Part shown: positions 24,997 through 51,411 of the stretch, one piece after another | Position numbering within the stretch: the first letter of the stretch is position 1 | Layout of the letters: the number at the start of each line of letters is the position of its first letter | Assembly (NCBI GenBank): GCA_049968315.1 | Contig: JBMFRA010000006.1 | Location: forward strand, 647 to 64,646 | Direction of reading: 5' to 3' | Length of the DNA: 64,000 nt | From: Acidobacteriota bacterium | GTDB lineage: Bacteria; Acidobacteriota; UBA4820; DSQY01 | Made by a program: the position numbers and the translations under genes | Notes under the pieces: model-generated | The model's input: only the letters and a program-made list of their open reading frames with translations | Database searches by the model: none | Told to the model about the DNA's origin: nothing

Positions 24997-27900
24997 CTAT
25001 GGTCGTGTATAGGAGGCCGTGCAGTATCCCCCGTCGGGGTTCTCCAGGCGGATGGAGACGGCCTGGCCCTTGGGAAACTTGGCCTTGAGGGCCGATCCAC
25101 CCTTCAAAACGACGGTGGTGGCGTTCTTGACGGTGGCCTGGGCCCAGGGCTCGGGGTCGCTTCCAAGGTACACCCGGGCCCCCGCCTGGAAATTCTGGCC
25201 CAAGAGCTTGATCCGGAAGGGCGCTGCCATCTTGGTGACGGCAGTAATGGCCGGCGGGTCCTTCACGGCGAGGAAGGAGACCTCCGCCGCCTGCCCGGCG
25301 TCGTCGTAGGCTCGGGCCACCACCCGGTGGGCTCCGGAGGGGAGGGATGTCGGGTCCAGGCGGAAGGTGAAGGGATGGTGGAGGTCCTCCTTGCTAGCTT
25401 GGCCGTCCACGAGGAAGACCACCTTCGCCACCGCCCCATCGTCGGAGGCGGCGGCGGCCACAGCCAGGGGGGCGCTTCCCAGGACCACGTACCCCTCCGT
25501 GGGGGCGAGGAAGACTACGGAGGGAGGCGCGTCGGCCTTCACGGTGAAGGCCCCAGGGAGGGTGCGGGGAGCCCCTCCGGGGTTGGCGAGCGTCAGGGTC
25601 CGGGGCCCCGGCGCTGCGGCGGGGGCGATGGAGACCCTCAGGGCCAGCAGGTGGGGGGAGAGGAAAGAAACCTCCTGCACGGAGACCCCCTCCCCCAGAT
25701 TCACGCTGGCTCCGTCGGCAAAGTTGTCCCCGGAGAGTTCCAGGACCATCTGCCGCCCCTGGATGCCCTCGTCGGGGCGGAGGGACCCCAGGCGCGGCCC
25801 CGGCGGGGCGGGCTGGCAGTCGAAGGCAGAAGCCGGGTAGGGGGCAGTGGGTACGCCGGCCTCCCAAGAGTCCACGGGGCGCAGCGTCCCCCCTTCGAGA
25901 AGCCGGAGGTTCCGGACGGCAAGGGGGCTTCCGAAGGCGGCGCACGGAGCCCCGGAGAGGTCGAAGAGGAGGCCTTGGGTGGCGGAGCCGGGGGAGGTGG
26001 CGGTGAAGGCCGTGGAGGCGTGGGCGAGGAAGAAGTCCGAGGCGTCGTAGAGGTCCGCCGAGAGGGTGTAGTCGCCGGCGGCGGGAAGGTCCAGATTCGC
26101 CGTGAAGGCCAGGGCCTCGTAGAGGCCGTCGTCGTCGGTGTCCCACCCCTGGTCGGCGAAGGAACCGGTGAAGGCGTGGGCCGGCGGGAGGACGGCCAGA
26201 AGGTCCCTGGCGATCCGGGTGACGCCCTGCCCGTCGTAGGTCCCCTGGGCGGTGAAGAGGACGTCGTAGGCCCCCGGGAGGGATGGGGCCACACCGGTTC
26301 CGCCGAAGGAGCCGTCCCCCGCCGCCCCGTCCCCGTGCTGGCCGTCGTCGTAGAGGGTCACCGTGTCCAGGAGGGAGCCCCCCGAGAGGACGGCGGCGGT
26401 GACCGCCGTGAAGGCCAGGTCCCCCGGGTCACCGGTGAGGTCCAGCCGGTAGTGGACCGCCTCCCCGGGGGCGTACCGGTCTCTCGTCACGTGGGCCTCG
26501 ATGCCGGCGGGGCTGTTCTCGAAGGAGGTGGCCCGGAAGGTGACGCTCCCCGCGGGAACGGCCACCGAGAGGGTCCAGGTGCCGGGCTCGGGGTTTAGGA
26601 CCTGGAAGAGGAGGTCGTTTTCGCCGGCGGCGGAGGCGGCGGGGCTTCCGTGGGGATCCAGCAGGGTGAAGGAGGCGGATCCGTCCTGGACGAAGACGGC
26701 GAGGGCCATGCCGTCGGTGGCCCCCACGGGAAAGTCGAAAGACTGCGTGGCCAAGGGCCCTCCCGCGAAGGCGCTGAGGGTGCCGCCTTTGGTACCCGTG
26801 GAGCGGGCCCCTGTACCCCAAAGGCTGGAGCCCACCGGACTCAGCGGGTTCTCGTCGTCGCCGGCTGGGGCGGAGGGGGAGGCCGCGAGCGGCGTGGGGG
26901 AAGGTCCCAAAACCCCCACCCGAGGGAGGATGGTGGCGGCAAGGACGTCGGTGGCGGAGGGGGGCGATCCGAGTTCGGCGTGGTCGTAAGAGAAGATATG
27001 GCCCGGGCCGCTGTCGAAGACCACCGAGGCGTACGGGCGGCACCGGGGACCCGAGGGGTCTCCGTCGCCGCAGAGGAGCCTCACGATGGCGAAGGCCGAG
27101 AAGAGGGGGACCCTCCCGTCGGACCCCCCCATGCCCCACAGGCCTCGGTCCCCCCCAATGGCATAGACCTTGTCGGTCCAAGGGCCAAAGTTGGGGTAGA
27201 CCTCGTTAAAGCGCCGGACGATGGCGTCGGTGCCGAGGGGTCCTTCCCCCAGGCCGCCGAAAAAGAAGTCGCTCCCGCTGTTGGGGACGGCCAGGAGGAA
27301 GATCTTCTGCAAGGCCCGCATCACGAGATCCTCTCCCAGGCCTCCCCCGGCCAGTACCCGGGCCACCAGGCCCCCCATGTCGTAGGCCACCAGCGTCCAG
27401 GGCGGGTAGGGCGAGACGGAGAGGACCTTCCCGGCCCGATCTTCGAGGCCGTGGAGGTCCGCCTCGATTTGGGTGTAGACCTGGCCCGCCCGGAGGTCCC
27501 AGGAGACCTCCTGCCCCCACCAGGTGTAGTGGGGGGTGAAGGAGAAGAAGCCTGCGGCCCGCGCCCGGTTGTCCCAGTACTCCCCGGCTCCGGGACCCTC
27601 CCCCACCCACTTCCGGTAGCACCCCATCACCCCGTGGAGAAAGACGATGGGGGGCGGGAAGGCGATGTCGGCCTCCACCCCCCCGGACGGGGGGACGGCC
27701 ACCGGAGAAGCGAGGGCCCGCACCACCTCCTTCTCCAGGTACCCCCCGGGGGGGGCCGGGCAGCCGAAGCCCCGGTACTCCGCGTCGTGGAGGATGAAGT
27801 CCTTGTACCGGACCCGGGCCTCCAGGCGGTAAGTGCCGGCGGGTAGGGAGGGAAAAGCGTAGAAGCCGCGGGAGGCGGAGACGGTCTGGGCGGCGCCGGT

Positions 27901-30675: not shown

Positions 30676-30930
30676 GGTTCCCTCCCGCCCAAGACGAGCC
30701 TTGGAGTTATACCCTATGGTTCTTAATATAGGATCGAGGGGATGCGCCGTCGAGGGCTCCTCCGCCCCACCTCTCGGGAAGGGATCCCGAAAAGCCCTCT
30801 GAAAACAAGGCCCTTTCCAAGAAACGGCCTTGGCTCGATCTGTGACCTTCCTCACAGTCCTCCTGGATCCCAGGAGCACCTTGCCACGGCCCGGGGGCAC
30901 CGGTATCCTGTCGCCACGCGGGAGGACCCC

Positions 30931-32655
30931 ATGGACCTCGGAAGGCGCCTTTTCAAAGCGGCGTTCCTTTGGCTTTCGCTTCTTCTCCTGGCCTGCGGCG
31001 GCTCCCGGGAAACGTCCCCGCCCGCCGCCGCCCCCGGGCGGATCCAACCAACGGGCCAGGCGGCCTTTCTCTCGGCCTACCAAGGAAAGCCTCCGGTGGA
31101 CGGGGGCACCTTCACCCGGCCTCTCCCCGTGGAACCGGTGACGCTGAACCCCGTGGTGGCCAGCGACCAGGTCTCCTTCCTCGTCTACAAGTGGATCTTC
31201 GACCCCTTGATCGACATGGACGAGAAGATGGAGCCCACGGGGGTGCTGGCCCGCTCCTGGGAGGTCTCCCCCGACGGCCGGACCCTGACCTTCCACCTGC
31301 GGGAGGGGGTCTTTTGGCACGACGGGAAGCCCTTCACCGCCGAGGACGTCCTCTTCACCTACCGCGCCTGCATGGACCCCACCGTGGATGCCGTCAACAA
31401 GCGGCCCACCTTCGCCGAGGTTCAGTCGGTGGAGGCTCCGGACCCGCTCACTGTCGTCGTGAAGTGGAAGGTCCCCTACGCCCCCGGTCTGGCGGCGTGG
31501 GTCCTCTACATCCTCCCCAAGCACCTCTACGACTACCCGCCGGGAAAGGGCGCCCAATTCAACACCCACCCCCTGAACGCCCGCCCCGTGGGAACGGGCC
31601 CCTTCCGCTTCGTGGAGTGGAGGAGGGGCGAAGCGGTGGTGCTGGAGGCCAACCCTTCCTACTTCCGGGGCCGGCCCCACCTGGACCGGGTCGTCTTCCG
31701 GGTCCTTCCCCAGGCCGAGACCCAGCTCGCGGCCTACCGCACGGGGACGCTGGACATGGCGGGCCTCGGCCCCGAGCAATGGGAGGCGGTGAAGAGAGAC
31801 CCCGGCTTCTGGCGGCGGTCCTCTGTCTTCGAGTATCCCGTGAGGCAGTTCTACTACATCGGCTGGAACTTGGACGGGTCGGTCCCCCTCCTCGCCGACC
31901 GCAAGGTCCGCAAGGCCCTGGCCCTGGCCCTGAACCGAAAAGGCGTGGTGGACAGGATCCTGGGTGGCCACGGCGCCCTCCTCTCCGGCCCCTTTTACCC
32001 CGACGGGTGGGAGAGCAACCCCTCCGTCCCCCCCCTCCCCTACGACCCCGCCGCCGCGGCGAGGCTTCTCGACGAGGCCGGATGGACGGACCACGACGGG
32101 GACGGCCTCCGGGACCGCGGGGGAAAGCCCTGCGCCTTCGAGTGCCTGGTCCCGGCGGAGGTGGAGATGTTCTCGAGGTGGCTGGAGGTCTTCCAGCAGG
32201 ACCTGCGCAAGGTGGGGGTGGACATGCGGGTCCGGCAGCTGGAGTGGGGGGTCTTTCTGGACCGCACCCACCGCCACCGCTTCGAGGCGTACCTTTCGGG
32301 CTGGTCCCTGGGGGACGACCCCGACCCCTTCCAGCTCCTCCACTCCTCCCAGGGAAGGCTGCTCCCCTCGGGGGTGGGGGTGGGCCAGAACGACGGCTCC
32401 TACGCCAACGCCGAGGTGGACCGCCTCATCGAGGAGCAGCAGAGGACCTTCGACCGGCAGGCCCGCCAGCGGGCCCTCTGGAGGATTCACGAGATCGTCG
32501 CCGAAGACCAGCCCCACGCCTACCTCTTCCTGGGAACCCAGATCACCGCCGTCGGGAACCGCTTCCAGAACGTGAAGGCGAGCCGAGCCGGCTACGGCCT
32601 CTTCACCTGGTACCCCTCCCTCCTGGAGTGGTGGGTGCCGAAGGAACTCCAGTAG
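30931..32655 (+). CDS. ABC transporter substrate-binding lipoprotein, family 5 (oligopeptide/dipeptide-binding OppA/DppA-like)
   Basis: Lipoprotein signal MDLGRRLFKAAFLWLSLLLLACGGS, with the ATG at 30931 preceded by GGGAGGA. An SBP family-5 body follows (VEPVTLNPVVASDQVSFLVYKWIFDPLIDMDE...SWEVSPDGRTLTFHLREGVFWHDGKPFTAEDVLFTY). The listed ORF start at 30742 adds 63 unsupported codons. Confidence 0.85.
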   Translation: MDLGRRLFKAAFLWLSLLLLACGGSRETSPPAAAPGRIQPTGQAAFLSAYQGKPPVDGGTFTRPLPVEPVTLNPVVASDQVSFLVYKWIFDPLIDMDEKMEPTGVLARSWEVSPDGRTLTFHLREGVFWHDGKPFTAEDVLFTYRACMDPTVDAVNKRPTFAEVQSVEAPDPLTVVVKWKVPYAPGLAAWVLYILPKHLYDYPPGKGAQFNTHPLNARPVGTGPFRFVEWRRGEAVVLEANPSYFRGRPHLDRVVFRVLPQAETQLAAYRTGTLDMAGLGPEQWEAVKRDPGFWRRSSVFEYPVRQFYYIGWNLDGSVPLLADRKVRKALALALNRKGVVDRILGGHGALLSGPFYPDGWESNPSVPPLPYDPAAAARLLDEAGWTDHDGDGLRDRGGKPCAFECLVPAEVEMFSRWLEVFQQDLRKVGVDMRVRQLEWGVFLDRTHRHRFEAYLSGWSLGDDPDPFQLLHSSQGRLLPSGVGVGQNDGSYANAEVDRLIEEQQRTFDRQARQRALWRIHEIVAEDQPHAYLFLGTQITAVGNRFQNVKASRAGYGLFTWYPSLLEWWVPKELQ

Positions 32656-32668
32656 GGGAGCCCTCGCC

Positions 32669-33685
32669 ATGGCGGTCTACGCCCTGCGGCGGCTCCTGCT
32701 GATGGTCCCCACCTTTCTCCTCATCACCGCCGTGGTCTTCGCGGCGGTGAAGCTGGCGCCGGGGAACCCCTTCTCCGCCGCCCGGGCCGCCGGCGAAGGA
32801 GCGGTCCGCCAGATGAACCCCGCCGACTACCAGGACCTCCTCCACCGGTACGGCCTGGACCGGCCCTGGTACGTCCAGTACGGCCGGTGGCTCGCGACCT
32901 TGGCCTCGGGCTCTCTGGGGGTCTCCTACAGCCAGCGGCGCCCGGTGAGCGAGGTCCTCTTCGGGGAGGCCTTCCCCGGAGGCGGATTCCTGTCGAGCCC
33001 CCTGGGGGCGACGCTCCTGCTCAACGTGCTGGCGACGGTGTTGATGCTGGCGGTGGCACTCCCCGTGGGATTCCAGGCCGCGCGGAGGCCCGGCGGGCCT
33101 TTCGACCGGCTGGTCTCGGGATTTCTCTACGCCCTCTACTCTCTCCCCAACTTCTGGGTGGCGGTGCTTCTCATCCTGGTGGCGGGCGTCCACTTCCGGC
33201 TCCTGCCCTTCATCGGGATGCGCTCGGAAGGCTTCGCCACCCTGGGTTTCTGGGGGAAGGCGGGGGACATCCTGCGCCACGCCGCCCTCCCGGCCCTCTG
33301 CCTGGCCTACGGGGGGATGGCCTTCATCGCCCGCTTCACCCGCCGAACCCTGCTGGAAAGCCTGGGAAGCGACTTCGTCCGGGCGGCCCGGGCACGGGGC
33401 CTCCCCGAGGGCCGGGTCCTCTGGGGCCACGGCGTGCGGAACGCCCTCCTCCCCATGGTCACCCTCCTCAGCCTTCTCCTTCCAGGGTTGGTCTCCGGTT
33501 CGGTCATCGTCGAGAACCTCTTCGCCTGGCCCGGTATGGGCCAGCTTTTCATGAAGGCCGTCTACACTCGGGACTACCCCGTGATCCTCGCCGAGTCGGT
33601 CCTGGGCGCGGTGGTGGTCCTGGGCAGCACCCTGCTGGCGGACCTCCTCTACGGCGCGGCGGACCCCCGCGTCCGGCTGGAGTGA
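32669..33685 (+). CDS. ABC transporter permease (OppB/DppB-like)
   Basis: MAVYALRRLLLMVPTFLLITAVVFAAVKLAPGNPF... is a typical OppB N-terminus. A multi-TM body and the EAA-like loop FIARFTRRTLLESLGSDFVRAARARG follow. Confidence 0.9.
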   Translation: MAVYALRRLLLMVPTFLLITAVVFAAVKLAPGNPFSAARAAGEGAVRQMNPADYQDLLHRYGLDRPWYVQYGRWLATLASGSLGVSYSQRRPVSEVLFGEAFPGGGFLSSPLGATLLLNVLATVLMLAVALPVGFQAARRPGGPFDRLVSGFLYALYSLPNFWVAVLLILVAGVHFRLLPFIGMRSEGFATLGFWGKAGDILRHAALPALCLAYGGMAFIARFTRRTLLESLGSDFVRAARARGLPEGRVLWGHGVRNALLPMVTLLSLLLPGLVSGSVIVENLFAWPGMGQLFMKAVYTRDYPVILAESVLGAVVVLGSTLLADLLYGAADPRVRLE

Positions 33686-35751: not shown

Positions 35752-37374
35752 TCAGGGCGGGGGGGCGAGGGCCACCCGCCCTCCGCCTTGCTTTCGGGCG
35801 GTCTCCAGGGCGGAGGAGGCGGCGTCGAGCCAGGCCTTCAGGGTCTTCATGGAGGGGTGGGCCATGGCCGCCCCGGCGGTGAAGGTGGTTCGGAGCTTCA
35901 GCTCTTCCACCGGCCACTCGATCTGGGAGTACTCCCACAGAAGCCTCTCCAAGAGCTTCACCGCGTCGCCGGGGGTGAGGTGTTCCAGGACGACGGCCAG
36001 GAGGTTTTCGCCGTAGCGCCCCATGATGTCGGTCTGCCGCACCTTACGCTGGAGGTACCGCGCCAGCCCCTGGAGGAGGGCCGCCTGGACCCTCGGCGGA
36101 GGAAAGGGCAGTGACGGGGGGGGATCCACCTGGACGAGGACCATGGCGTAGGGGACCTGGCGGCGGCTGAAGCGGGAGAGGCAGAGGCGGGCCTGCTGGA
36201 GGAAGGGGGTGTGGGCAAGAAGCCCCGTCAGTTCGTCGTGGTCCATCATCTCCTGGAGGGAGCGGTAGCGGATGAGCCTCGACTTGACGGTGGCCAGCAG
36301 GTCCTCGGGGGTCACGGGCTTGATGAGGTAGTCGTCGCCCCCGGCCTCGGCGCCCTTGATCTGGGCCTTTCGGCGCCCCTCGGTGGTGAGGAAGACCACA
36401 GGCACCGCGGAGAAACCCTCCTCCTGGCGGAGGTACCTCACGAGGTCGTAGCCCGAGACCCCGGGCAAAAGGACGTCCATCAGCACCAGGTCGGGCCGGA
36501 AGGCGTGCAACTCCCGCTCGAAGACCATGGGGTCGGTGAGGACCCGCACCTGGTAGCCTCCCTGGGAGAGGGTCCTTTCCAGAAACTCCGCCTGGTGGGG
36601 ATCGTCCTCCACCGCCAGGATCCGGGCGGCGGAGGCCCGCCTCCGGCCCAGCAGGGCCCGGAACTTGCGGAAGAGGCTTCCGGGGTCCACCGGGGGGGGC
36701 AGGAAGCCGTCGGCCCCGCAGGCGATGGCCTCCACCTTGTCGTGGAAGAGTTCGGGGGCGCCCAGGAGGATCACGGGGATGGTTCGTTCCCCTTCGATCT
36801 CCCGAAAGCGGCGGACGAAGTCGTAGCCGGAGCCGTCGGGAAGGGAGACGGCCACCGCCGCCATGTCCGGCAGGGAGGCCCGGGCCTTCTCCAGGCCGGC
36901 GGCCATGCTCTCCGCCTGTTCCACCTGAAGGCCGCGCTTCGCCATGAACTCCGAGAGGGCGGCGCTCTCCGGGGTGGAAGGGGCCACGAGCAGGAGCAGG
37001 GGGACGGCGCGGCTCTGGAACCGGCTGGGGGCCGCCGCCTGGGTATCCATCACCCCCTGGAAGATCACCCGGAGGCGGCGGACGAGGCCCGCGACCTGTT
37101 CCAGCTCCTCGTCGGTGGGGGGGCGCTCCGAAAGGAGCACCGTGTAGCACATGTACTCCCCCTCCCCTCCCAAGGCGCTCACCTCCGGGAGGGCGTAGAG
37201 GGCCCCCGAGCCCGCGAAGTCGTGGAAGCCGGCCTGGATCTCCTCCAGCGGGCGGCGGGAGGAGCGGTCCGCCTGCAGCGCCGAAAGGAGGCGGTCCATG
37301 TCCGCCAGACGCTGGGCGCTGTCCTCCAGATAGCGGCGCCAGGATTCCGTCCGGTCCTCCCGATTCTTGGCCAT
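35752..37374 (-). CDS. Response regulator with two receiver domains and a degenerate GGDEF domain that keeps the RxxD I-site motif
   Basis: Start trimmed to MAKNREDRTESWRRYLED (ATG complement at 37372-37374). REC1 is RAVPLLLLVAPS...; REC2 is ARILAVEDDPHQAEFL...DLVLMDVLLPGVSGYDLVRYLR...KPV. A GGDEF-like domain follows (HDELTGLL...) whose A-site reads RYGENLLAV instead of GG(D/E)EF, while the RxxD I-site just upstream (RQTD) is intact. Confidence 0.75.
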   Translation of the reverse strand: MAKNREDRTESWRRYLEDSAQRLADMDRLLSALQADRSSRRPLEEIQAGFHDFAGSGALYALPEVSALGGEGEYMCYTVLLSERPPTDEELEQVAGLVRRLRVIFQGVMDTQAAAPSRFQSRAVPLLLLVAPSTPESAALSEFMAKRGLQVEQAESMAAGLEKARASLPDMAAVAVSLPDGSGYDFVRRFREIEGERTIPVILLGAPELFHDKVEAIACGADGFLPPPVDPGSLFRKFRALLGRRRASAARILAVEDDPHQAEFLERTLSQGGYQVRVLTDPMVFERELHAFRPDLVLMDVLLPGVSGYDLVRYLRQEEGFSAVPVVFLTTEGRRKAQIKGAEAGGDDYLIKPVTPEDLLATVKSRLIRYRSLQEMMDHDELTGLLAHTPFLQQARLCLSRFSRRQVPYAMVLVQVDPPPSLPFPPPRVQAALLQGLARYLQRKVRQTDIMGRYGENLLAVVLEHLTPGDAVKLLERLLWEYSQIEWPVEELKLRTTFTAGAAMAHPSMKTLKAWLDAASSALETARKQGGGRVALAPPP

Positions 37375-37507
37375 CCTGCACCCCCGCCCCTTCGCAGGGC
37401 AACTATACCCTGCCTTTCCGCTTCTGAAAAGGCGTTTGACAGAAGCCGCTCCCGGTGCTAGCGTTACAAGCTTGGCCGGCCGGGGAAGGCCGGCAGGGAG
37501 GATCCCC

Positions 37508-38494
37508 ATGCACCGGTTTTTCCGAACGATGGGCATGGTGGCGCTCGCCGCCTCGCTGGCCCTCGGGGCCGCCGCCCAGTCCAAGGGCTCCAAGGGCAAG
37601 GACGAAAAGAGCAAGGAATCCCAGAAGATCGAGGACCTGATCGCCAAGGGGGAGTACCAGAAGGCGGTGGACCTCGCCCAGAAGTTCATCGAGGCGGGGC
37701 AGGTGACCGAAGGCCTCTACATCGACCTGGGGGTGGCCCACTACAACCTGAAGAACTACGAGGCCGCCATCCAGGCCTTCGAGAAGGCCGTGGAGCAGAA
37801 CCCCTTCGGCACCCAGGCCCTCCTCTACGAGGCCACCTGCTACCACGACATGGGCCAGGAGGCGAAGGCCGCCGAGGCCTTCCAGCGGGCCATCGACGTC
37901 GATCCCACCAACAACGAGGTCCGCTACAACATCGCCCAGCTCTACGAGAAGAGCAACCGCCCCCAGGACGCCCTGGCCCAGTACCAGGCCATCTACCAGC
38001 AGAACCCGGACTACAAGGACGTGGCCTTCGCCGCCGGCATCCTCCTCTTCAACCAGGGGAAGTACGCCGAAGCGGAGCCCTACTTCGAAAAGGCCGCCGC
38101 CCTGAGCCCCTCCGACGAGCAGGTGCTCCTGGCCGTGGGCCAGAACCTCCTGAAGGCAGAGCAGTACGCCAAGGCCATCCCGGCCCTCCAGAAGTACCTG
38201 GAGGTCACCAAGAACGACACCTACAAGCCCGCCGTGCTGGACCAGGTGGCCATCGCCTACGAGAAGCAAAAGGACTACGAAGGGGCCCTCGCCGCCTACG
38301 ACCGGATCCTGGGCCTCCGCCCCAACTGGGAGAAGGCCCTCCTCGGCAAGGGAAACGCCCTGGTGAACCTCAAGCGGTACGCCGAAGCCGTCCCCGTCCT
38401 CAAGTCCTACCTCGAGGTCTCGAAGAACGAGGAAAAGAAAAAGGCGGTCCAGGACCTCCTCAAGCAGGTGGAGCCCCTGGCCAAGAAGAAGTGA
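37508..38494 (+). CDS. Secreted TPR-repeat protein
   Basis: Signal peptide MHRFFRTMGMVALAASLALGAAAQ. About eight TPR units follow (YQKAVDLAQKFIEAG..., YEAAIQAFEKAVEQNP..., QEAKAAEAFQRAIDVDP...). Confidence 0.8.
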   Translation: MHRFFRTMGMVALAASLALGAAAQSKGSKGKDEKSKESQKIEDLIAKGEYQKAVDLAQKFIEAGQVTEGLYIDLGVAHYNLKNYEAAIQAFEKAVEQNPFGTQALLYEATCYHDMGQEAKAAEAFQRAIDVDPTNNEVRYNIAQLYEKSNRPQDALAQYQAIYQQNPDYKDVAFAAGILLFNQGKYAEAEPYFEKAAALSPSDEQVLLAVGQNLLKAEQYAKAIPALQKYLEVTKNDTYKPAVLDQVAIAYEKQKDYEGALAAYDRILGLRPNWEKALLGKGNALVNLKRYAEAVPVLKSYLEVSKNEEKKKAVQDLLKQVEPLAKKK

Positions 38495-41951: not shown

Positions 41952-42503
41952 GTGCGATTCCTTCGGTCTCGTCTCGGTTCTCCCGCGTTCGGACGGCCGT
42001 TTCTCTCCCTCCTGCTCCTGGGGACGGCCCTGGGCTGCGGCTACCGGCTCCTGGGGACGGGCAACCTGCCCGAGGGAATCAGGACGGTGGCCGTCCTCCC
42101 CTTCGAACGCCAGGTGCCCGTGGTCCAGCTCGACCAGCGGGTGACGGAGGCGGTGACCCAGGAGATGGCCCGGCGCCTCAAGGTACGGGTCCAATCGGAA
42201 AAGGAGGGGGCCGACGCCGTGCTGACCGGAACCATCCGGAGCTTCCACGTGGCTCCCCTCTCCTACGACGAGGCGGGCCGCGCCAACCGGTACCAGGTCT
42301 CCCTGGGGGTCAGGGTCCGCCTGGCGGACGCCAAGGGGACGATCCTCTTCGAATCCCAGGCCTTCCGGTTCACCGAAAACTACGCCCGCTCCTCCTCCCC
42401 GGCCACCTTCGCCGCCGAGGAGGTGGTGGCCTACGAGCAGGTGGCCCGGGACTTCGCCAGGGCCCTGGTCTCGGCCATGATGGAGGGCGGCCGTGGCCGA
42501 TGA
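41952..42503 (+). CDS. lptE: LPS-assembly lipoprotein LptE-like
   Basis: Lipoprotein signal ...LLLLGTALGCGYRLLG, then an LptE-like body (TVAVLPFERQ..., VLTGTIRSFHV...). It lies immediately downstream of leuS, which is the conserved leuS-lptE synteny. Confidence 0.7.
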   Translation: MRFLRSRLGSPAFGRPFLSLLLLGTALGCGYRLLGTGNLPEGIRTVAVLPFERQVPVVQLDQRVTEAVTQEMARRLKVRVQSEKEGADAVLTGTIRSFHVAPLSYDEAGRANRYQVSLGVRVRLADAKGTILFESQAFRFTENYARSSSPATFAAEEVVAYEQVARDFARALVSAMMEGGRGR

Positions 42504-43551
42504 CCGGATCCCCCGCCACGAACAGGGCGGTCCCCCGGGGACGTGGACGGTCTGCACCCTCACCCCCGACGGGCTCCTCAAGGAGGATTTCGCCGCCGGC
42601 CTCAAGGTCCACGGCGACCTCATCTACTACGACGAGATCTGGGACTACAACGCCTTCTGCCCCTTCCCCCTCGGGAGGATCCTCGCCCTGGCCGCCGTCA
42701 CCGCCGCCGCCGTTCTTCTCCCCTTTTGGGGTGCAGGGCCCGTGGCCGCCTACCTCCTCCCCTGGGCCCTTCTCTCCGTGGCGTGGGTCTTCCTGTGGGC
42801 AGCCCTGAGGCGCAAGTCGGTCCACCTCTTCGATTTCCAGGGACAGGAGCTGGCCGTCCTCCACGGCGTTCGGGGGGGCTCCCTGGACCGCTTCCTGGAG
42901 GCGCTCGTGGAGCAGGTGGCCCGCTCCCGCTACCCCCTCCAGGCCACGCTGGAAGGGCTGGACCTCGGCCGCCTCTCCCTCCGCGCCCGCGGGCGGACCT
43001 TCCGGGCCTCCTTCCTCTACGACCGGGTTCTCTTCGAGGAACTGGGGCCGCTGGGCTACGGGCGGCGGGAGTTCTACGCTCTCACCGCGCTGAGGGCCCC
43101 CCTCTCCCTGGCCTGGCGCGTTCCCTGGCCCACCCTCTTCCCCGGGATCCTCGCCGCCCTGCTGGCGGTACCGGCGGCCTCGGCGGGACTGGAGAGCCGG
43201 GGCTCCGCCGGCCCCTGGGCCTGGGGCCTCCTCGGCGCCTCCCTCCTCTTGTTGCTCCTCTCGGCCCTTCTCCTCACCGTCTCGGTGACGGTGGATACCG
43301 GCGGCACCGCCCCCTTCCGCTCGCCGCCGCTCTCCTGGTGGGCCCGGCGGGACCGCCAGCGGATCCTCGCCTTCCTGGCCTCCGTGGTGCGGGCCGCCGA
43401 CCGGGTGGACCTCCTGGACATGGAGGACTACTGGGAGTACCACCGGGCCAAGCTCGCCCTCCTCAAGGAGGAGGGCTTCCTGGAGGAGTGGCCCTACCGC
43501 TCCGCCCTGGTGCGTCTCAGCAGCCAGGAACGGGAGGAAATGGGGGAGTAA
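42493..43551 (+). CDS. Hypothetical polytopic membrane protein
   Basis: Long ORF with several hydrophobic helices (LALAAVTAAAVLLPFWGAGPVAAYLLPWALLSVAWVFLWAAL; LGASLLLLLLSALLLTVSV). The GTG start overlaps the lptE stop. No recognisable domain. A competing frame is listed in the track. Confidence 0.45.
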   Translation: MADDRIPRHEQGGPPGTWTVCTLTPDGLLKEDFAAGLKVHGDLIYYDEIWDYNAFCPFPLGRILALAAVTAAAVLLPFWGAGPVAAYLLPWALLSVAWVFLWAALRRKSVHLFDFQGQELAVLHGVRGGSLDRFLEALVEQVARSRYPLQATLEGLDLGRLSLRARGRTFRASFLYDRVLFEELGPLGYGRREFYALTALRAPLSLAWRVPWPTLFPGILAALLAVPAASAGLESRGSAGPWAWGLLGASLLLLLLSALLLTVSVTVDTGGTAPFRSPPLSWWARRDRQRILAFLASVVRAADRVDLLDMEDYWEYHRAKLALLKEEGFLEEWPYRSALVRLSSQEREEMGE

Positions 43552-43572
43552 GGGCGCCCGCCCGAAGGCGCC

Positions 43573-45204
43573 TCAGAGGCTCTTGCAGGCCCGGGCCACG
43601 GCCCGGATGGCCTGGCCGAAGGGCTTGGCCACGAAGGGGTCGTCGGCCAAGAAGCGGAGGGGCGTCCCCCGCCGTTCCAGCAGGCTCCGAAAGATCTCCA
43701 TGCTGAGCGCCCTCCGCATGGAGACGCCGGAGAGAAAGGCGGCGGTGCACAGGAGGGAAGGCTCCATCTCGAACTCCCGGGCGGCCTCCTCCAGTTCCTC
43801 CCGGTGCCCCAGGATGTACGAGAGCTTCATCTGGGCGTCGGCCAAGGGCAGGTCGCCGCAGGGGACCCCTCCGGCCTCCAGGAGGGTCAGCCCCGTCTCG
43901 TAGTCGGCGTCGTAGGGCTCCAGGGGAACCTGGGAGGTCACCGCCACGAACTTCCCGGCGGCGACGGCCTTCTTGAGGGCCGGCAGGACGGAGTGGGGGG
44001 AGCCTTTGAGGATGTTGGCGTTGCCCCCCCCGTACCCGCAGAGGATGGCCGCCGACCCGCAGGCCCCGAACTGGGCTTCGTAGTCCCCGGTGGTGAAGAA
44101 AGGGTTGGCGAAGACCGGCTTCACCGTGGTATCGAAGCGGGTGTCGGCGGTGGCGACGCCGATCTTCTCGATCTCCAGGGCCACCCTCTCCCAATGCTCG
44201 CAGGTGAGGTTGGAGGAGTCGAGGGAGAAGAGGTCGTGGCGGTGCGGGTTGACGAAGAAGCCGGAGAGGGGGTCGTTGAGGTACTTCCAGACGAAGTCCC
44301 CCGTGGGTTTGAGGGCACCGAAGGCCGACGCCGAGCGCTGGGACTCGATGGTTCCCCCCGTCCGGATGAGGTGGAGGTCCTGAAGGCGCTGGTCCTCGTA
44401 AGGGATGAAGACCCAGTCCTTCCGGGCGGAGGTGATGCCGTCGGGGGTGGCGCTGGCCGCCAGCCGCCCTTCGAAGGCGTCGGTGTCCCACTTGCGGTAC
44501 TTGGTGAGGCGCCCCGAGAAGACCCGCTGGCCGTTGTTGAAGACCGCGAAGAGGTGGGCGGGCCTCAGCCGGTTGAGGAGGTAGAGGGCCGTCTTGAGGT
44601 TTCCCAGGGCGTCGGAGCTGGAAAAGTACCCCTCCAGCGGAACCTGGGATCCGGTCACCGCCACGTTGGCCTTGAGCCCTTTGAGGGCGTACCGGAGGTA
44701 GCAGAGGCCCCAGGCCATGGTGTCGGTGCCGTGGGTGACGAGGATCCCCACGTCGTTCCGCACCCGCCCGTACTTCTCCATGCCCTTGGCGATCTTCCAT
44801 TCCAGCACGTCCAGGCGGTCGCCCCCGAGGATCTCCTCCTTGAAGAGGAAGGCCTCGGGGTCCACGTCCTCCACCTTGAGGTCCTCGGTGACCCGTTCGG
44901 AGACGAAGGCCTCTCTGAGGACCCGGGCGTCGTGGATGGCGGTGAGGACGACGACGGGGACCGTGGGGTACCGGCGGCGGATGTGGTAGAGGAGCTCGAT
45001 GCCCTCCCGCCCGCCGGGGGAGAGTTCCACGTCCAGGACCACGGCGTCGGGGGCCTCCCCGGCGAGGATCTCCACGGCGCCTTCGAAGGAGTCGGTGAAG
45101 AGGCACCGCCAGTCGGGGCGGTGCTTCTCGAAGTGGGCCCGGAGGACGGCCTCCATCCCGCCCAGGTCGTCGTCCACGAAGAGGATGGTGAAAGTTCGCG
45201 CCAT
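43573..45204 (-). CDS. Response-regulator receiver fused to an L-asparaginase-like domain
   Basis: REC is MARTFTILFVDDDLGGMEAVL...PDAVVLDVELSPGGREGIELL. Asparaginase motifs follow: VTHGTDTMAWG...VAVTGSQVP...SDALGNL, then LIRTGGTIESQ, then the C-domain (ILCGYGGGNANIL...FVAVTSQVPLEP...LPLADAQMKLSYILG). HGTDTM precedes TGGTI, which is the reverse of the canonical order. Confidence 0.8.
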   Translation of the reverse strand: MARTFTILFVDDDLGGMEAVLRAHFEKHRPDWRCLFTDSFEGAVEILAGEAPDAVVLDVELSPGGREGIELLYHIRRRYPTVPVVVLTAIHDARVLREAFVSERVTEDLKVEDVDPEAFLFKEEILGGDRLDVLEWKIAKGMEKYGRVRNDVGILVTHGTDTMAWGLCYLRYALKGLKANVAVTGSQVPLEGYFSSSDALGNLKTALYLLNRLRPAHLFAVFNNGQRVFSGRLTKYRKWDTDAFEGRLAASATPDGITSARKDWVFIPYEDQRLQDLHLIRTGGTIESQRSASAFGALKPTGDFVWKYLNDPLSGFFVNPHRHDLFSLDSSNLTCEHWERVALEIEKIGVATADTRFDTTVKPVFANPFFTTGDYEAQFGACGSAAILCGYGGGNANILKGSPHSVLPALKKAVAAGKFVAVTSQVPLEPYDADYETGLTLLEAGGVPCGDLPLADAQMKLSYILGHREELEEAAREFEMEPSLLCTAAFLSGVSMRRALSMEIFRSLLERRGTPLRFLADDPFVAKPFGQAIRAVARACKSL

Positions 45205-45389
45205 GGCCGCCCCTGGAGAGAGTGTACCACCGCCCGGGTGGAGGGAAAGAGGGGGGCGGCGGCAATCCCCTGCAAGGTGGAGGCCCCCTCGGCCCCGGGA
45301 TCCAGCCGGCCCCGCCGCCCTCCCCGGTCCCGCCGAAGCCCTCCCGTTCTCATGAAGGCGGGCCGTGGTATGCTAGGAAGGGAGGCGCC

Positions 45390-46109
45390 ATGGCCGCATC
45401 GGTCCGCCTGCTGCTGCTCAGCAATTCGACCAACCCCGGGGAACCGTACCTCGGCTGGTCCCTGCCCCACATCCAGAGGTTCCTCGCCGGCGCCGCCCGG
45501 CGGGTCCTCTTCGTGCCCTTCGCCGGTGTCCGGATCACCTGGGAGGACTACACCGCCAAGGTCCGGGGTGCCTTCGCCGGCATCGGTGTCGAGGTGGCCG
45601 CCACCCACGAGGTGGCGGACCCCGCGGCGGCCCTGGGGCGGGCGGAGGGGCTGGTGGTGGGCGGCGGCAACACCTTCCACCTCCTCCGGCTCCTGCGGGC
45701 CTCGGGCCTCCTGGAAGCCGCCAAGAAGGCCGTCGGGGAAGGCATGCCCTACGTGGGCTGGAGTGCCGGCGCCAACGTGGCCTGCCCCACCATCATGACC
45801 ACCAACGACATGCCCATCGTGGACCCCCTGGGTCTCGACGCCCTGGGCCTCGTCCCCTTCCAGATCAACCCGCACTTCACCGAGGCCGTTCTCCCGGGCC
45901 ACGGCGGCGAGTCCCGGGAGGAGCGGATCCTGGAGTTCCTGGAGGCCCACCCGGAGGCGGTGGTGGTGGGACTCCGGGAGGGGAGCCTCCTCCGCCGGGA
46001 GGGCGGCGAGCTGCGCCTGGAGGGAATCCGCGGTGCCCGCCTCTTCCGCCGGGGATCGGAGGCGGTGGACCTGGCGCCCGGTTCGGTCCTCTCGGGCCTC
46101 CTCGCCTGA
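45390..46109 (+). CDS. Peptidase S51 family (dipeptidase E / cyanophycinase-like)
   Basis: RLLLLSNSTNPGEPYLGW...GLVVGGGNTFHLLRLL...YVGWSAGANVACPTIMTTNDMPIVDP is the S51 Ser-His-Glu arrangement. ATG at 45390, with AGGAAGGGAGG upstream. Confidence 0.8.
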   Translation: MAASVRLLLLSNSTNPGEPYLGWSLPHIQRFLAGAARRVLFVPFAGVRITWEDYTAKVRGAFAGIGVEVAATHEVADPAAALGRAEGLVVGGGNTFHLLRLLRASGLLEAAKKAVGEGMPYVGWSAGANVACPTIMTTNDMPIVDPLGLDALGLVPFQINPHFTEAVLPGHGGESREERILEFLEAHPEAVVVGLREGSLLRREGGELRLEGIRGARLFRRGSEAVDLAPGSVLSGLLA

Positions 46110-49031: not shown

Positions 49032-49457
49032 TCAGGGAGCGGCGTTGCGGGCGTTGAGGTAGTCGGCCACCGCCTCGATCTGCCGGTTGGAGAGGCGTCC
49101 CTCGAAGGCCGGCATGGTGAGCCCCCGCCCCCGGTGCACGATCCTGATCAGCAGGTCCCGGTGGTCCTCGTAGGGCCAGTTCTTCCGGAGGAGGGCCGGA
49201 ACCGTCCCCGACCCCTTAAGGTCGGCCCCGTGGCAGACGGCGCAGTTCTCGGCGTAGAGGACGGCACCGTCCAGGGAACCGGCGGGGGCGGGAGCCTTGG
49301 AGGACGCCGGTGGGGAGGAGGGTACCGGGGCGGCGGTCTCCCGTCCGGCGAGGGCGGTCCTCCAGAAGAGCAGGGTGAGGGCGGCGGGCAGGACGACGGC
49401 GGCGGCCACGGCTAGCCCGCGAAAGACGGAAGCTCTCGGGTGGGCGGTCTCGGTCAT
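49032..49457 (-). CDS. Membrane-anchored c-type cytochrome (class I)
   Basis: Start trimmed to MTETAHPRASVFRGLAVAAAVVLPAALTLLFW, a TM anchor. There is a single CxxCH heme site (ENCAVCHGADLKG) and a downstream Met ligand (GLTMPAF). The upstream part of the listed ORF is unsupported. Confidence 0.75.
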   Translation of the reverse strand: MTETAHPRASVFRGLAVAAAVVLPAALTLLFWRTALAGRETAAPVPSSPPASSKAPAPAGSLDGAVLYAENCAVCHGADLKGSGTVPALLRKNWPYEDHRDLLIRIVHRGRGLTMPAFEGRLSNRQIEAVADYLNARNAAP

Positions 49458-49584
49458 TCCATCCTCCAGGGCCGATGATAACACCGGCGGATTCCTCCGC
49501 TTCCCACCGGCCCTTCTCAGAGGCCCCCCAGGAAGGGTATTCTGGCCGGGGGGCCAGTCCCCGGGGGTTTTCGAGGAGGCATCC

Positions 49585-51411
49585 ATGGGCAAGATCGTCG
49601 AGTGCGTCCCCAACTTCTCCGAAGGCCGGGACGGAGCCGTCATCAAGCAGATCACCGACGCCATCCAGAGCGTCGAGGGCGTCGAGCTGAAGAACGTGGA
49701 CCCCGGCCCCGACATGAACCGCGTAGTGGTGACCTTCTTCGGACCGCCGGAGGCCGTGGAGGAGGCCGCCTTCCGGGCCATCGCCACCGCGGCGGAGGTC
49801 ATCGACATGCGTGCCCACCGCGGCAGCCACCCCCGGATGGGCGCCACCGACGTCTGCCCCTTCGTCCCGGTCCACGACGTGACCATGGAGGAGTGCGTCG
49901 CCATGGCCCGCCGCTTGGGGGAGCGGGTGGGTAAGGAACTCCGGATTCCCGTGTACCTGTACGAGTACGCCGCCACGCGGCCCGAGCGAAGGAACCTCGC
50001 CGAGATCCGGCGCGGGGAGTACGAGGGGCTTCCCAAGAAGCTCAAAGACCCCGCCTGGGCCCCCGACTTCGGCCCCGCCGTCTTCAACCCCAAGTCCGGC
50101 GCCACGGTCATCGGCGCCCGGGACTTCCTCATCGCCTACAACATCAACCTCAACTCCCGCGTCAAGGACCACGCCACCGACATCGCCTTCGAACTGCGGG
50201 AGAAGGGCCGCTCCGTCCGTACGGGAAACACCGAACCTTTCTACTACATGGGCAAGATCTTGAAGCACGAGCCGGGAAAGTACCCCTGCGGCACCTGCCT
50301 CGAGGTCTTCCCCGACCCGGCGGCCCTCTTCTCCCACATCGAGGCCGCCCACGGCTACGACGGGCGGGCCCTCTACCGGCTGAACGACATCGACCCCGAC
50401 CGCCTCGACGGCCAGTCGGTGAAGAAGCCGGGCCTCTTTCGCGCCTGCAAGGCCATCGGCTGGGAGCTCCCCCAGCACGGCCGCACGCAGATTTCCATCA
50501 ACCTGACCAACTTCCGCCTGACCCCTCCCCACATCGTCCTGGAAAAGGCCCGGGAGCTGGCGGCCCTGCGGGGGCTCGTGGTCACCGGATCGGAGATCGT
50601 GGGCCTCGTTCCGCTGGAGGCCCTCGCCGAGGCCGGCCGGTTCTACCTCTCCCGCCAGGGGCGCTCCACCGGCGTCCCCCTGGACGACCTGTTGGAGACG
50701 GCGATCCAGAGCATGGGGCTGAGGGACCTGGGCCCCTTCGACGTGAAGGAGCGGGCCATCGGCTACCCCAAGGTCCCCCCGGAGGAGCTCATCGCCAAGA
50801 CCACCTTCGAGTTCGTCCACGAGGTCTCCCGGGATTCCCCCGCCCCCGGCGGCGGTTCCGTGGCGGCCCTCTCGGGGGCCCTCGGCGCCGCCCTGGCCTC
50901 CATGGTGGCCAACCTCACCGTCGGAAAGGCCGGCTACGAAGAGGCCTTCGCCGAGATGGGGGCGGTGGCGGTGGAGGCGCAGAAGACCAAGGACGCGCTG
51001 CTGCTCCAGGTGGACGCCGACACCCGGGCCTTCAACGGGTACATGGAAGCCCTCCGCCTCCCGCGAAACACCGACGCCGAGAAGGCGGCACGCCAGCAGG
51101 CCATGCAGGACGGGCTGAAGGAGGCGGTGGCCGTGCCCCTCCTCACGGCGGAGCTTTGCCTCCGGGCCCTGGGCCTCTGCCAGCGGGCCGCCGCCGTGGG
51201 GAACCGGAACTCCGTCTCCGACGCGGGGGTCGGCGCCCACATGGCCTTCGCCGGAGTCCTGGGGGCCTGCCTCAACGTCCGCATCAACCTTCCGGGCATC
51301 AAGGACGAGGCGTACACCGCCGAGAAGCGCTCCGCCGTCCAGTCGCTGGAGGCCGAGGCCCGCCGCCTTCTCGAGGCCTGCACCGCGGAGGTCCTCGGCA
51401 GGATCCGCTAG
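49585..51411 (+). CDS. ftcD: Bifunctional glutamate formimidoyltransferase / formiminotetrahydrofolate cyclodeaminase
   Basis: MGKIVECVPNFSEGRD...DMRAHRGSHPRMGATDVCPFVP is a formiminotransferase. The C-terminal ~190 aa form a cyclodeaminase helical domain (GSVAALSGALGAALASMVANLTVGK...). ATG at 49585 after GAGGAGG. Confidence 0.85.
   Translation: MGKIVECVPNFSEGRDGAVIKQITDAIQSVEGVELKNVDPGPDMNRVVVTFFGPPEAVEEAAFRAIATAAEVIDMRAHRGSHPRMGATDVCPFVPVHDVTMEECVAMARRLGERVGKELRIPVYLYEYAATRPERRNLAEIRRGEYEGLPKKLKDPAWAPDFGPAVFNPKSGATVIGARDFLIAYNINLNSRVKDHATDIAFELREKGRSVRTGNTEPFYYMGKILKHEPGKYPCGTCLEVFPDPAALFSHIEAAHGYDGRALYRLNDIDPDRLDGQSVKKPGLFRACKAIGWELPQHGRTQISINLTNFRLTPPHIVLEKARELAALRGLVVTGSEIVGLVPLEALAEAGRFYLSRQGRSTGVPLDDLLETAIQSMGLRDLGPFDVKERAIGYPKVPPEELIAKTTFEFVHEVSRDSPAPGGGSVAALSGALGAALASMVANLTVGKAGYEEAFAEMGAVAVEAQKTKDALLLQVDADTRAFNGYMEALRLPRNTDAEKAARQQAMQDGLKEAVAVPLLTAELCLRALGLCQRAAAVGNRNSVSDAGVGAHMAFAGVLGACLNVRINLPGIKDEAYTAEKRSAVQSLEAEARRLLEACTAEVLGRIR

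What the first reader, a model, noticed from the sequence alone, without database searches (positions are those of the whole stretch)
43573..45204. Receiver domain fused to an asparaginase-like domain with swapped motif order
An N-terminal CheY-like receiver with intact DDD...D...T/K residues is fused to an L-asparaginase/GatD-like domain. Within that domain the HGTDTM/VTGSQ block comes about 130 residues before the TGGTIES block. In canonical type I/II asparaginases TGGTI comes first. Either the N-domain is circularly permuted or an extra partial copy was inserted. A phosphorylation-regulated amidohydrolase, or an enzyme-derived output domain, is an uncommon response-regulator architecture.
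Basis: seen in the sequence. Interest (0 to 1): 0.55.

Follow-up and report, generated by a model that had tools for sequence, protein, structure and literature searches.

The report
Receiver-fused, circularly permuted asparaginase-like enzyme
This gene encodes a two-component receiver domain fused to an asparaginase/GatD-type amidohydrolase whose N-terminal catalytic domain is wired in swapped order, and it belongs to a small, undescribed family found in bacteria and Asgard archaea.

Summary
ORF 43573-45204 (-) is an intact 543-aa gene. It has three parts: a CheY-like receiver with all phospho-acceptor residues, an asparaginase N-domain, and an asparaginase C-domain with a roughly 63-aa helical tail.

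The N-domain halves are swapped. The HGTDT/K half (residues 146-269) comes before the TGGT/S half (270-350). This is a true circular permutation of the N-domain, not an extra partial copy or an artefact:
- Each canonical element occurs exactly once.
- Re-ordering the two halves in silico restores one colinear alignment to Pfam PF00710, GatD and AnsA-type enzymes.
- An AF2 model is confident (pLDDT 92.5).
- About 150 homologues from independent assemblies share the same breakpoint.

The catalytic residues T282, T160, D161, K235 and S330 are kept in 66 of 69 aligned members, so the domain is most likely an active amidohydrolase.

The family is rare, with about 51 clusters at 50% identity among 1.84 billion representatives. 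It occurs as a stand-alone protein, as a receiver fusion (one clade, mostly Acidobacteriota) and fused to a class-I GATase-like domain (Asgard archaea).

No histidine kinase gene was found near the gene. Substrate and regulation are inferred. I found no literature on it. I rate it a new variant of a known kind, of moderate interest.

The parts
43573..45204 (-). Whole gene: 543-aa receiver plus permuted asparaginase-like protein (stop codon 43573-43575)
   Evidence: ORF list. Third-position GC is 0.94. Homologues of 536-546 aa align end to end. Coordinates were verified by translation.
44770..45204 (-). Receiver (REC) domain, residues 1-145, including helix a5 (131-144) and a low-confidence a4-b5 insertion (about 100-117)
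   Evidence: PF00072 matches residues 7-100 at 38.2 bits. AF2 predicts a (b/a)5 pattern: E5-10, H17-28, E32-37, H40-49, E54-58, H67-78, E84-88, H90-101, E118-121, H131-144.
45031..45033 (-). D58 codon, the predicted phospho-acceptor aspartate at the end of REC strand b3. Its partners are D11-D13 (45166-45174), T88 (44941-44943) and K122 (44839-44841).
   Evidence: Translation check. Conservation table. Secondary-structure positions in the AF2 model.
44398..44769 (-). Segment B, residues 146-269: the second half of the canonical asparaginase N-domain, placed first. It carries HGTDT (T160, D161; 44722-44727), VTGSQ, SDAxxN and the catalytic K235 (44500-44502).
   Evidence: Local canonical HMM: query 148-245 matches HMM 74-167, E 9e-23. 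Pfam: query 152-245 matches profile 78-170. T160 and D161 are invariant in the 69-sequence alignment; K235 is kept in 68 of 69.
44155..44397 (-). Segment A, residues 270-350: the first half of the canonical N-domain, placed second. It carries strand b1 with TGGTIES (nucleophile T282; 44359-44361), the lid loop 284-303, the substrate-binding DSS motif (S330; 44215-44217) and helix a2 (335-348).
   Evidence: Local canonical HMM: query 276-347 matches HMM 4-72, E 9e-11. GatD 1zq1 residues 91-163 align to query 274-347.
43765..44154 (-). Asparaginase C-terminal domain, residues 351-480 (GYGGGN at 390, VAVTSQVP at 420-427, D432, Y435)
   Evidence: PF17763 matches residues 385-476 at 45.8 bits. Local HMM: query 352-480 matches HMM 196-322.
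43576..43764 (-). Family-specific C-terminal helical extension, residues 481-543 (motifs FLSGV and DPF). It has no counterpart in canonical asparaginases.
   Evidence: AF2 predicts helices 482-491, 499-511, 523-526 and 529-541. The region is conserved in the family consensus, including stand-alone forms. No Pfam match.
45205..45389 (.). 185-bp divergent intergenic region between the gene start and the likely pepE (Peptidase_S51) start at 45390
   Evidence: Sequence read. Translation from 45390 begins MAASV. No sigma-70 consensus promoter or intrinsic terminator was found in 43300-45600.

Best explanation
The gene encodes an orphan response regulator with an enzyme as its output module. That module belongs to the type I/II L-asparaginase / GatD superfamily, and its N-terminal catalytic domain is circularly permuted: the order is b4...K-strand half, then b1...a2 half, then the unchanged C-domain and a family-specific helical tail.

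Shown here:
- The permutation is real and has a single breakpoint throughout the family.
- The fold is confidently predicted.
- The two catalytic threonines (T282, T160), D161, K235 and the substrate-binding S330 are conserved.

Inferred:
- The domain is an active amidohydrolase that releases ammonia from L-Asn, L-Gln or a closely related amide, like cytosolic type-I enzymes.
- Phosphorylation of D58 modulates activity. The new N-terminus created by the permutation sits directly on the strand that carries T160 and D161. REC helix a5 is therefore joined by a 7-residue linker to an active-site strand.
- Asparaginase active sites form across an intimate dimer. The most likely mechanism is therefore phosphorylation-driven REC dimerisation or a shift of the a4-b5-a5 face, which would promote or re-align the catalytic dimer. 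Relief of an inhibitory REC contact, as in CheB, is the alternative.
- The phosphodonor is not encoded next to the gene.
For: - Gene reality and domain content.
- Swapped order, with each canonical segment present once.
- The re-ordered construct restores a single colinear match. PF00710 covers 2-171 of 193 positions at 80.7 bits, against 73.5 bits in two stretches for the native core. For GatD 1zq1, E improves from 4.7e-16 (full-length native protein) to 2e-20.
- AF2 model: pLDDT 92.5, pTM 0.92, and secondary-structure elements that map one-to-one onto the canonical N-domain elements.
- Foldseek: probability 1.00 to GatD and archaeal or type-I asparaginases.
- T160, D161 and S330 are invariant in all 69 aligned sequences; K235 and T282 each vary in one member. 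S186, Q187, D198 and N202 are also invariant.
- REC residues DDD, D58, T88 and K122 are intact in the query and its nearest relatives, and in the basal REC-fused clade.
- The REC fusion recurs in diverged members.
- The close-relative neighbourhood has an amino-acid catabolism flavour (PepE/S51, amino-acid permease, FTCD). This is weak support.
Against: - There is no biochemical data. The substrate is unknown.
- No histidine kinase lies next to the gene, and none was found among the 20 window ORFs scanned.
- No gene neighbour is conserved beyond about 65% identity.
- The lid-loop tyrosine of canonical enzymes is not conserved. The query has F295 at a variable column.
- Most REC-fused relatives have lost the phospho-acceptor residues yet keep the domain. 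REC may therefore act structurally, and phospho-control may be dispensable.
- I could not inspect model coordinates. Active-site geometry and REC-core contacts are not verified. Foldseek TM-scores normalised to the target are only about 0.6, because the aligner is sequential.
Confidence: 0.6

Rival explanations
1. The asparaginase-like module is a glutaminase or ammonia-donor subunit, as GatD is for GatE. It would feed a partner synthetase rather than act as a catabolic asparaginase, with REC gating ammonia supply.
For: GatD 1zq1 is the best Foldseek match and the second-best sequence match in the PDB. The permuted core is fused to a second amidotransferase-type domain in long Asgard and other forms: PF00117 hits 7 of 8 C-terminal domains with best E 3.1e-6, and the motifs CLGHQ and FHPE are visible.
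Against: GatD equivalog scores are far below their cut-offs (75.5 against 310 bits). No GatD N-terminal domain is present. No GatE-like or synthetase partner is adjacent in any locus examined.
Confidence: 0.15
2. The module is a pseudo-enzyme or ligand sensor. The asparaginase fold would bind Asn, Gln or Asp without turnover, and the protein would act as an adaptor or regulator, comparable to the RssB type of REC plus dead enzyme.
For: The canonical lid tyrosine is missing. The gene is an orphan with no operon partners.
Against: The complete catalytic set (T282, T160, D161, K235, S330) is kept in 66 of 69 sequences spanning 23-80% identity. This pattern is typical of active enzymes rather than pseudo-enzymes.
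Confidence: 0.1
3. The REC domain of this protein is a constitutive structural or oligomerisation module that is not phosphorylated, so the enzyme is not under two-component control.
For: Most members of the REC-fused clade have lost D58, the acidic pair or K122 but keep the domain. No kinase gene is nearby. Pfam REC scores are only just above threshold.
Against: In the query and its closest relatives (P0002, P0003, P0004, P0006, P0007) all five signature positions are retained. They sit at the structurally correct strand ends.
Confidence: 0.12
4. The swapped order is an artefact (frameshift or mis-assembly), or it reflects two N-domain copies with one truncated.
For: Pfam reports two PF00710 stretches.
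Against: The stretches are complementary, not redundant. The ORF is continuous with uniform coding signal. About 150 homologues from independent data sets share the same order and breakpoint. The re-ordered construct aligns colinearly.
Confidence: 0.01

Closest known systems
Cytosolic type-I L-asparaginases (E. coli AnsA 2P2D/2HIM; Pyrococcus horikoshii PH0066 1WLS; Thermococcus kodakarensis 5OT0)
   Same: Same two-domain fold (Foldseek probability 1.00). Same motifs: TGGTI, DSS, HGTDT, TGSQ, SDAxxNL, the K-strand and GxGxGN. The re-ordered sequence aligns over residues 5-316 of Yersinia pestis L-asparaginase I (7r6b), and to 1WLS with E 1e-21.
   Different: The N-domain halves are in swapped order. 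There is an added roughly 63-aa C-terminal helical extension and an N-terminal receiver. TIGR00519 scores 82.7 bits against a 260.5 cut-off. The lid tyrosine is not conserved.
GatD, the glutaminase subunit of archaeal GatDE (1ZQ1, 2D6F)
   Same: Best structural match. The three segments align at 274-347, 150-241 and 400-476. The catalytic residues are the same.
   Different: There is no GatD N-terminal domain and no GatE partner. The order is permuted. The equivalog score is far below its cut-off.
Response regulators with enzymatic outputs (CheB REC-methylesterase/deamidase; PleD/WspR REC-GGDEF; RpfG REC-HD-GYP; PorX REC-PglZ). This comparison rests on established knowledge, not on a test here.
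   Same: An N-terminal CheY-like receiver with an intact phospho-acceptor set is fused to a catalytic domain. The likely logic is activation by dimerisation or relief of inhibition.
   Different: The output is an asparaginase-fold amidohydrolase. I found no description of this output in the searchable literature. The gene is an orphan with no adjacent kinase.
60-kDa lysophospholipase / mammalian ASPG (asparaginase domain plus ankyrin repeats; 4R8K, 5DNC)
   Same: An asparaginase catalytic domain embedded in a multi-domain protein, with allosteric behaviour.
   Different: Canonical order, and a C-terminal ankyrin fusion rather than an N-terminal REC.

Membership tests
Type I/II L-asparaginase / GatD superfamily (Pfam PF00710 + PF17763) | Both domain HMMs score above their gathering thresholds | tested here: met
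   PF00710 scores 72.7 bits (cut-off 22.5). PF17763 scores 45.8 bits (cut-off 34.6)..
Type I/II L-asparaginase / GatD superfamily | Catalytic residues: the nucleophile Thr in TGGT, the Thr-Asp of HGTDT, the catalytic Lys and the substrate-binding Ser | tested here: met
   T282, T160, D161, K235 and S330 are all present. T160, D161 and S330 are invariant in 69 family members; K235 and T282 each vary in one member.
Type I/II L-asparaginase / GatD superfamily | Canonical linear order: TGGT, then Ser, then HGTDT, then Lys, then the C-domain | tested here: not met
   The order here is HGTDT (158), K235, TGGT (282), S330, then the C-domain. HMM segments run 74-167, 4-72, 196-322.
Type I/II L-asparaginase / GatD superfamily | Three-dimensional fold | tested here: met
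   The AF2 model has pLDDT 92.5. Foldseek gives probability 1.00 and E 2e-13 to 1zq1, 5ot0 and 1wls. TM-scores normalised to the target are 0.47-0.62 under a sequential aligner. A permutation-aware superposition could not be run.
Type I/II L-asparaginase / GatD superfamily | Lid-loop tyrosine (Tyr25 of E. coli AnsB) | tested here: not met
   The aligned loop column 295 is variable (F in the query). No conserved Tyr appears in 284-303 in the family consensus and near-invariant list.
Type I/II L-asparaginase / GatD superfamily | Asn or Gln amidohydrolase activity | not testable with these tools
   Requires an enzyme assay.
Type-I asparaginase subfamily (NCBIfam TIGR00519) and AnsA equivalog NF006998 | Score above the curated cut-off | tested here: not met
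   82.7 bits against 260.5, and 65 bits against 376.
GatD (NCBIfam TIGR02153 / NF003217) | Equivalog score, GatD N-terminal domain and GatE partner | tested here: not met
   71.9 bits against 324 and 75.5 bits against 310. No PF18195 domain. No GatE-like neighbour.
CheY-like response-regulator receiver (PF00072) | HMM score above threshold and a (b/a)5 fold | tested here: met
   38.2 bits against 30.2. The AF2 secondary-structure pattern fits.
CheY-like response-regulator receiver | Acidic pair after b1, phospho-acceptor Asp at the end of b3, Thr/Ser at the end of b4, Lys after b5 | tested here: met
   D11, D12, D13, D58, T88 and K122 lie at the ends of strands 5-10, 54-58, 84-88 and 118-121.
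CheY-like response-regulator receiver | Cognate histidine kinase or phosphodonor | tested here: inconclusive
   No kinase is adjacent or among the 20 window ORFs scanned. An Hpt-like/REC/GGDEF protein lies 6 kb away (35752-37689), but its Hpt score is below threshold (23.2 against 24.6 bits).

The most novel reading that the evidence does not exclude
The permuted proteins are a functionally distinct, ancient branch of the asparaginase superfamily. In this reading they are a regulated ammonia-releasing or deamidating module that acts on something other than free Asn, such as Gln for a partner enzyme, or a peptide or protein amide. Evolution has repeatedly plugged this module into control or partner domains: REC in Acidobacteriota and WOR-3, and a class-I GATase-like domain in Asgard archaea. 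The permutation would have been selected because it puts the chain terminus on an active-site strand, which makes the enzyme directly controllable by an N-terminal fusion.
Probability: 0.2. Interest if true: 0.7.

Novelty: new variant of a known kind. Interest (0 to 1): 0.55.

Why it matters
Type I/II asparaginases are among the most studied amidohydrolases because of their use in leukaemia therapy and food processing. I found no description of a natural circular permutation of their catalytic domain in the searchable literature.

The family shows that the fold tolerates re-wiring between helix a2 and the HGTDT strand. This gives a natural template for engineering permuted or switchable asparaginases.

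For two-component signalling it adds a new enzymatic output class, which would link phosphotransfer directly to amide-nitrogen metabolism. The repeated decay of the receiver's phospho-site within one clade is also a compact natural case of receiver-to-pseudo-receiver evolution.

Tried and rejected
- Extra partial copy or two N-domains: rejected, because profile coverage is complementary and the re-ordered construct aligns colinearly.
- Frameshift or assembly artefact: rejected.
- Function from conserved gene neighbourhood: only close relatives (L002, L008; at least 67% identity) share the leuS-lptE / pepE synteny. Loci at 60% identity or less have unrelated neighbours. An Exo_endo_phos gene is convergent downstream in two stand-alone loci (L004, L013), which is too few to interpret.
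- Cognate kinase in the window: none found among the 20 ORFs scanned.
- Anti-phage defence link: PADLOC gives only a weak hit caused by the REC domain.
- Genome scan with the family alignment: the returned rows were mostly canonical asparaginases, and only 6 permuted loci were recovered.
- Identity of the C-terminal domain of the long forms: a profile search against PDB sequences found nothing. The Foldseek list for the full-length Asgard model is saturated by asparaginase hits. Only sub-threshold PF00117 hits and motifs support a GATase-like domain.
- Literature: six searches found no paper on permuted type I/II asparaginases or REC-asparaginase fusions. The library is open-access only.
- Promoter and terminator scan: nothing found.

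Full report
**1. The observation**

ORF 43573..45204 on the minus strand is 543 aa and starts with ATG. An AGGGG Shine-Dalgarno-like motif precedes the start. Third-position GC is 0.94, like the other genes of this roughly 70% GC window.

Pfam finds three families:
- Response_reg at residues 7-100.
- Asparaginase N-domain (PF00710) in two stretches, the best being residues 152-245 against profile positions 78-170.
- Asparaginase_C at residues 385-476.

HGTDT lies at residue 158, VTGSQ at 183-187, TGGTI at 282 and GYGGGN at 390.

**2. Permutation, not duplication or artefact**

phmmer against GatD 1zq1 aligns three query segments out of order:
- query 274-347 to GatD 91-163,
- query 150-241 to GatD 168-259,
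- query 400-476 to GatD 340-417.

I built an HMM from 42 canonical type-I asparaginases. It places query 148-245 on positions 74-167, query 276-347 on positions 4-72, and query 352-480 on positions 196-322. Each canonical segment occurs once. Only the canonical inter-domain linker (about 168-195) has no match.

I then re-ordered the sequence in silico as 270-350 + 146-269 + 351-543. The results were:
- PF00710 now matches in one stretch covering 2-171 of 193 positions, at 80.7 bits. The native-order core gives 73.5 bits in two stretches.
- GatD residues 91-417 (E 2e-20), Yersinia pestis L-asparaginase I residues 5-316 and other type-I enzymes each align in a single full-length stretch.

An AlphaFold2 model built from a 69-sequence alignment is confident, with pLDDT 92.5 and pTM 0.92. 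Its secondary-structure elements map one-to-one onto the canonical N-domain:
- Segment B: strand 152-157 (HGTDT), helix 163-173, strand 180-184 (VTGSQ), helix 199-212, strands 218-222 and 227-235 (K235), and a hairpin at 244-259.
- Segment A: strand 274-283 (TGGT), lid loop, helix 304-310, strand 317-328 (followed by S330), and helix 335-348.
- The chain then enters the C-domain.

Foldseek gives probability 1.00 to GatD and archaeal or type-I asparaginases. TM-scores normalised to the target are about 0.6, as expected for a sequential aligner on a permuted protein. I could not access coordinates for a permutation-aware superposition.

**3. A family, not a one-off**

The word-indexed search returned 112 homologues at E <= 2e-35, P0001-P0112. 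The full-library search returned 51 clusters at 50% identity with E < 1e-30 out of 1.84 billion representatives. A clear gap separates these from canonical asparaginases, which match in three broken stretches at E >= 1e-17.

Every full-length member shows the same B-A-C order and the same breakpoint at HMM position about 73-79. This indicates one ancient permutation event.

Three architectures occur:
- Stand-alone proteins of about 386-415 aa that begin directly at the HGTDT strand. Examples come from Rikenellaceae, Bacteroidaceae and Delongbacteria MAGs.
- N-terminal REC fusions of about 525-600 aa, plus longer forms with further N-terminal regions. These are mostly Acidobacteriota, including Aminicenantes and Thermoanaerobaculaceae, and WOR-3.
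- Forms of about 740-830 aa, several annotated as Heimdallarchaeota or Asgard. They carry a C-terminal domain of roughly 400-430 aa with CLGHQ and FHPE motifs. PF00117 (class-I GATase) hits 7 of 8 of these domains below threshold, with best E 3.1e-6.

**4. Is it an enzyme?**

In the 69-sequence alignment, T160, D161, S186, Q187, D198, N202 and S330 are invariant. K235 and T282 are each kept in 68 of 69, and the full catalytic set is kept in 66 of 69, across 23-80% identity. Family-specific invariants such as W239, D354, D432 and Y435 also appear.

The DSS motif resembles the type-I consensus LDSSN(I/M). The only canonical catalytic element missing is the lid-loop tyrosine, which aligns to a variable column with F295 in the query.

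This pattern argues for a working amidohydrolase. Substrate specificity (Asn, Gln or another amide) cannot be read from sequence.

**5. The receiver**

D11-D12-D13, D58, T88 and K122 are present and sit at the ends of strands b1, b3, b4 and b5 in the model.

On a neighbour-joining tree of the catalytic core, the REC-fused proteins form one clade. The full phospho-acceptor set is kept in the basal branches (P0063-P0071) and in the query's own small subclade (P0002, P0003, P0004, P0006, P0007). It has been lost repeatedly elsewhere, for example as D-P-E-A-S-R or G-K-D-x patterns at positions 11-12-13-58-88-122.

Phospho-control is therefore probably ancestral and retained here. In many relatives it is dispensable, and those relatives keep REC as a pseudo-receiver.

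**6. Surroundings**

The gene is monocistronic.
- Downstream it converges on a 352-aa protein with hydrophobic stretches and no Pfam match (42493-43551). This gene follows leuS and lptE.
- Upstream it diverges, across 185 bp, from a Peptidase_S51 / PepE-like gene (45390-46109). After that come TANGO2, a 3'-5' exonuclease, an amino-acid permease and FTCD.
- No histidine kinase was found among the 20 window ORFs scanned.
- A REC-GGDEF protein with a sub-threshold Hpt match lies 6 kb away (35752-37689).

The arrangement is syntenic only in close relatives: L002 at 80% identity, and L008, an Acidobacteria MAG, at 67%. It is different at 60% identity or below. Context therefore gives no firm functional partner.

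The nearest genome hit and the diderm markers (LptE here, LptD in L002) suggest the window comes from an Acidobacteriota bacterium.

**7. Mechanism**

The permutation, the fold, the conserved catalytic and receiver residues and the orphan status are shown.

The rest is inferred. The new N-terminus created by the permutation lies on the strand that bears T160 and D161, so REC helix a5 (131-144) is tethered by 7 residues to an active-site strand. Established structural work on this family shows that asparaginase active sites form across an intimate dimer. Phosphorylation of D58 most plausibly promotes or re-aligns that dimer through the REC a4-b5-a5 face. Alternatively it relieves an inhibitory REC contact, as in CheB.

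My confidence by step:
- Architecture: about 0.95.
- Catalytic activity: about 0.7.
- Phospho-regulation in this protein: about 0.55.
- The specific dimerisation mechanism: about 0.35.

**8. Novelty**

Public sources label these proteins generically, for example "asparaginase domain-containing protein" or "L-asparaginase/GatD". Six full-text searches found no description of a permuted type I/II asparaginase or of a REC-asparaginase regulator. The library is limited to open-access papers.

The protein fails the linear-order criterion and all NCBIfam equivalog and subfamily cut-offs. It keeps the fold and the chemistry-defining residues. I classify it as a new variant of a known kind, of moderate interest.

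Noticed in passing
Related proteins P0075-P0087, P0100, P0103, P0105, P0109-P0112 (not in the window): Long members of the permuted family (about 740-830 aa), several annotated as Heimdallarchaeota or Asgard, carry a C-terminal domain of roughly 400-430 aa. It has class-I glutamine-amidotransferase-like motifs (F/I-C-L-G/S-H-Q and Q-F-H-P-E), and PF00117 hits 7 of 8 below threshold. This would put two different amidohydrolase-type domains in one protein. A profile search against PDB sequences found nothing.
   Followed up: partly
window 44770-44812 (residues 131-144) and several REC-fused homologues: REC helix a5 (LDVLEWKIAKGMEKY) aligns to canonical asparaginase helix a2, which normally precedes the HGTDT strand. 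HMM matches extend to positions 43-66 in P0070, P0045, P0053, P0010, P0017 and P0002. A genuine a2 is still present at residues 335-348. This is either a relic of a duplication intermediate or convergence.
   Followed up: partly
window 35752-37689 (-): A 645-aa protein with two receiver stretches, a partial GGDEF domain and a sub-threshold Hpt match (23.2 against 24.6 bits). It is syntenic with the target in L002. It could be a phosphorelay component for the orphan receiver, but this was not tested.
   Followed up: no
window 42493-43551 (+): A 352-aa ORF with hydrophobic stretches and no Pfam or PADLOC match. It follows leuS-lptE, converges on the target gene, and is conserved in that position in L002 (53% identity) and L008 (39%).
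   Followed up: partly
window 45390-46109 (+): A Peptidase_S51 (PepE-like aspartyl dipeptidase) gene diverges from the target across 185 bp. The ORF as listed starts at a GTG at 45222, but the likely start is the ATG at 45390 with a strong GGAGG-type ribosome-binding site. The adjacency is kept only in close relatives.
   Followed up: partly
window 20766-24956 (+): A 1396-aa protein that combines an adenylate/guanylate cyclase catalytic domain, an AAA_16 STAND-type ATPase and TPR repeats.
   Followed up: no
window 8288-11806 (-): A 1172-aa Peptidase_C25 (gingipain-family) protein with fn3 and PKD domains.
   Followed up: no
window 24997-32670 (-): A 2557-codon open frame with high third-position GC (0.83). 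It overlaps the well-supported SBP_bac_5 gene on the opposite strand (30742-32655). At least part of it is probably a spurious antisense ORF, typical of high-GC DNA.
   Followed up: no
window 49297-51411 (+): A 704-aa formiminotransferase-cyclodeaminase (FTCD_N, FTCD, FTCD_C) with a roughly 100-aa N-terminal extension. With the amino-acid permease and PepE it gives the locus an amino-acid catabolism flavour.
   Followed up: no
L004 9242-10909 and L013 4539-6311: Two stand-alone permuted-asparaginase loci from different lineages each have a 555-590-aa Exo_endo_phos family gene convergent immediately downstream.
   Followed up: no
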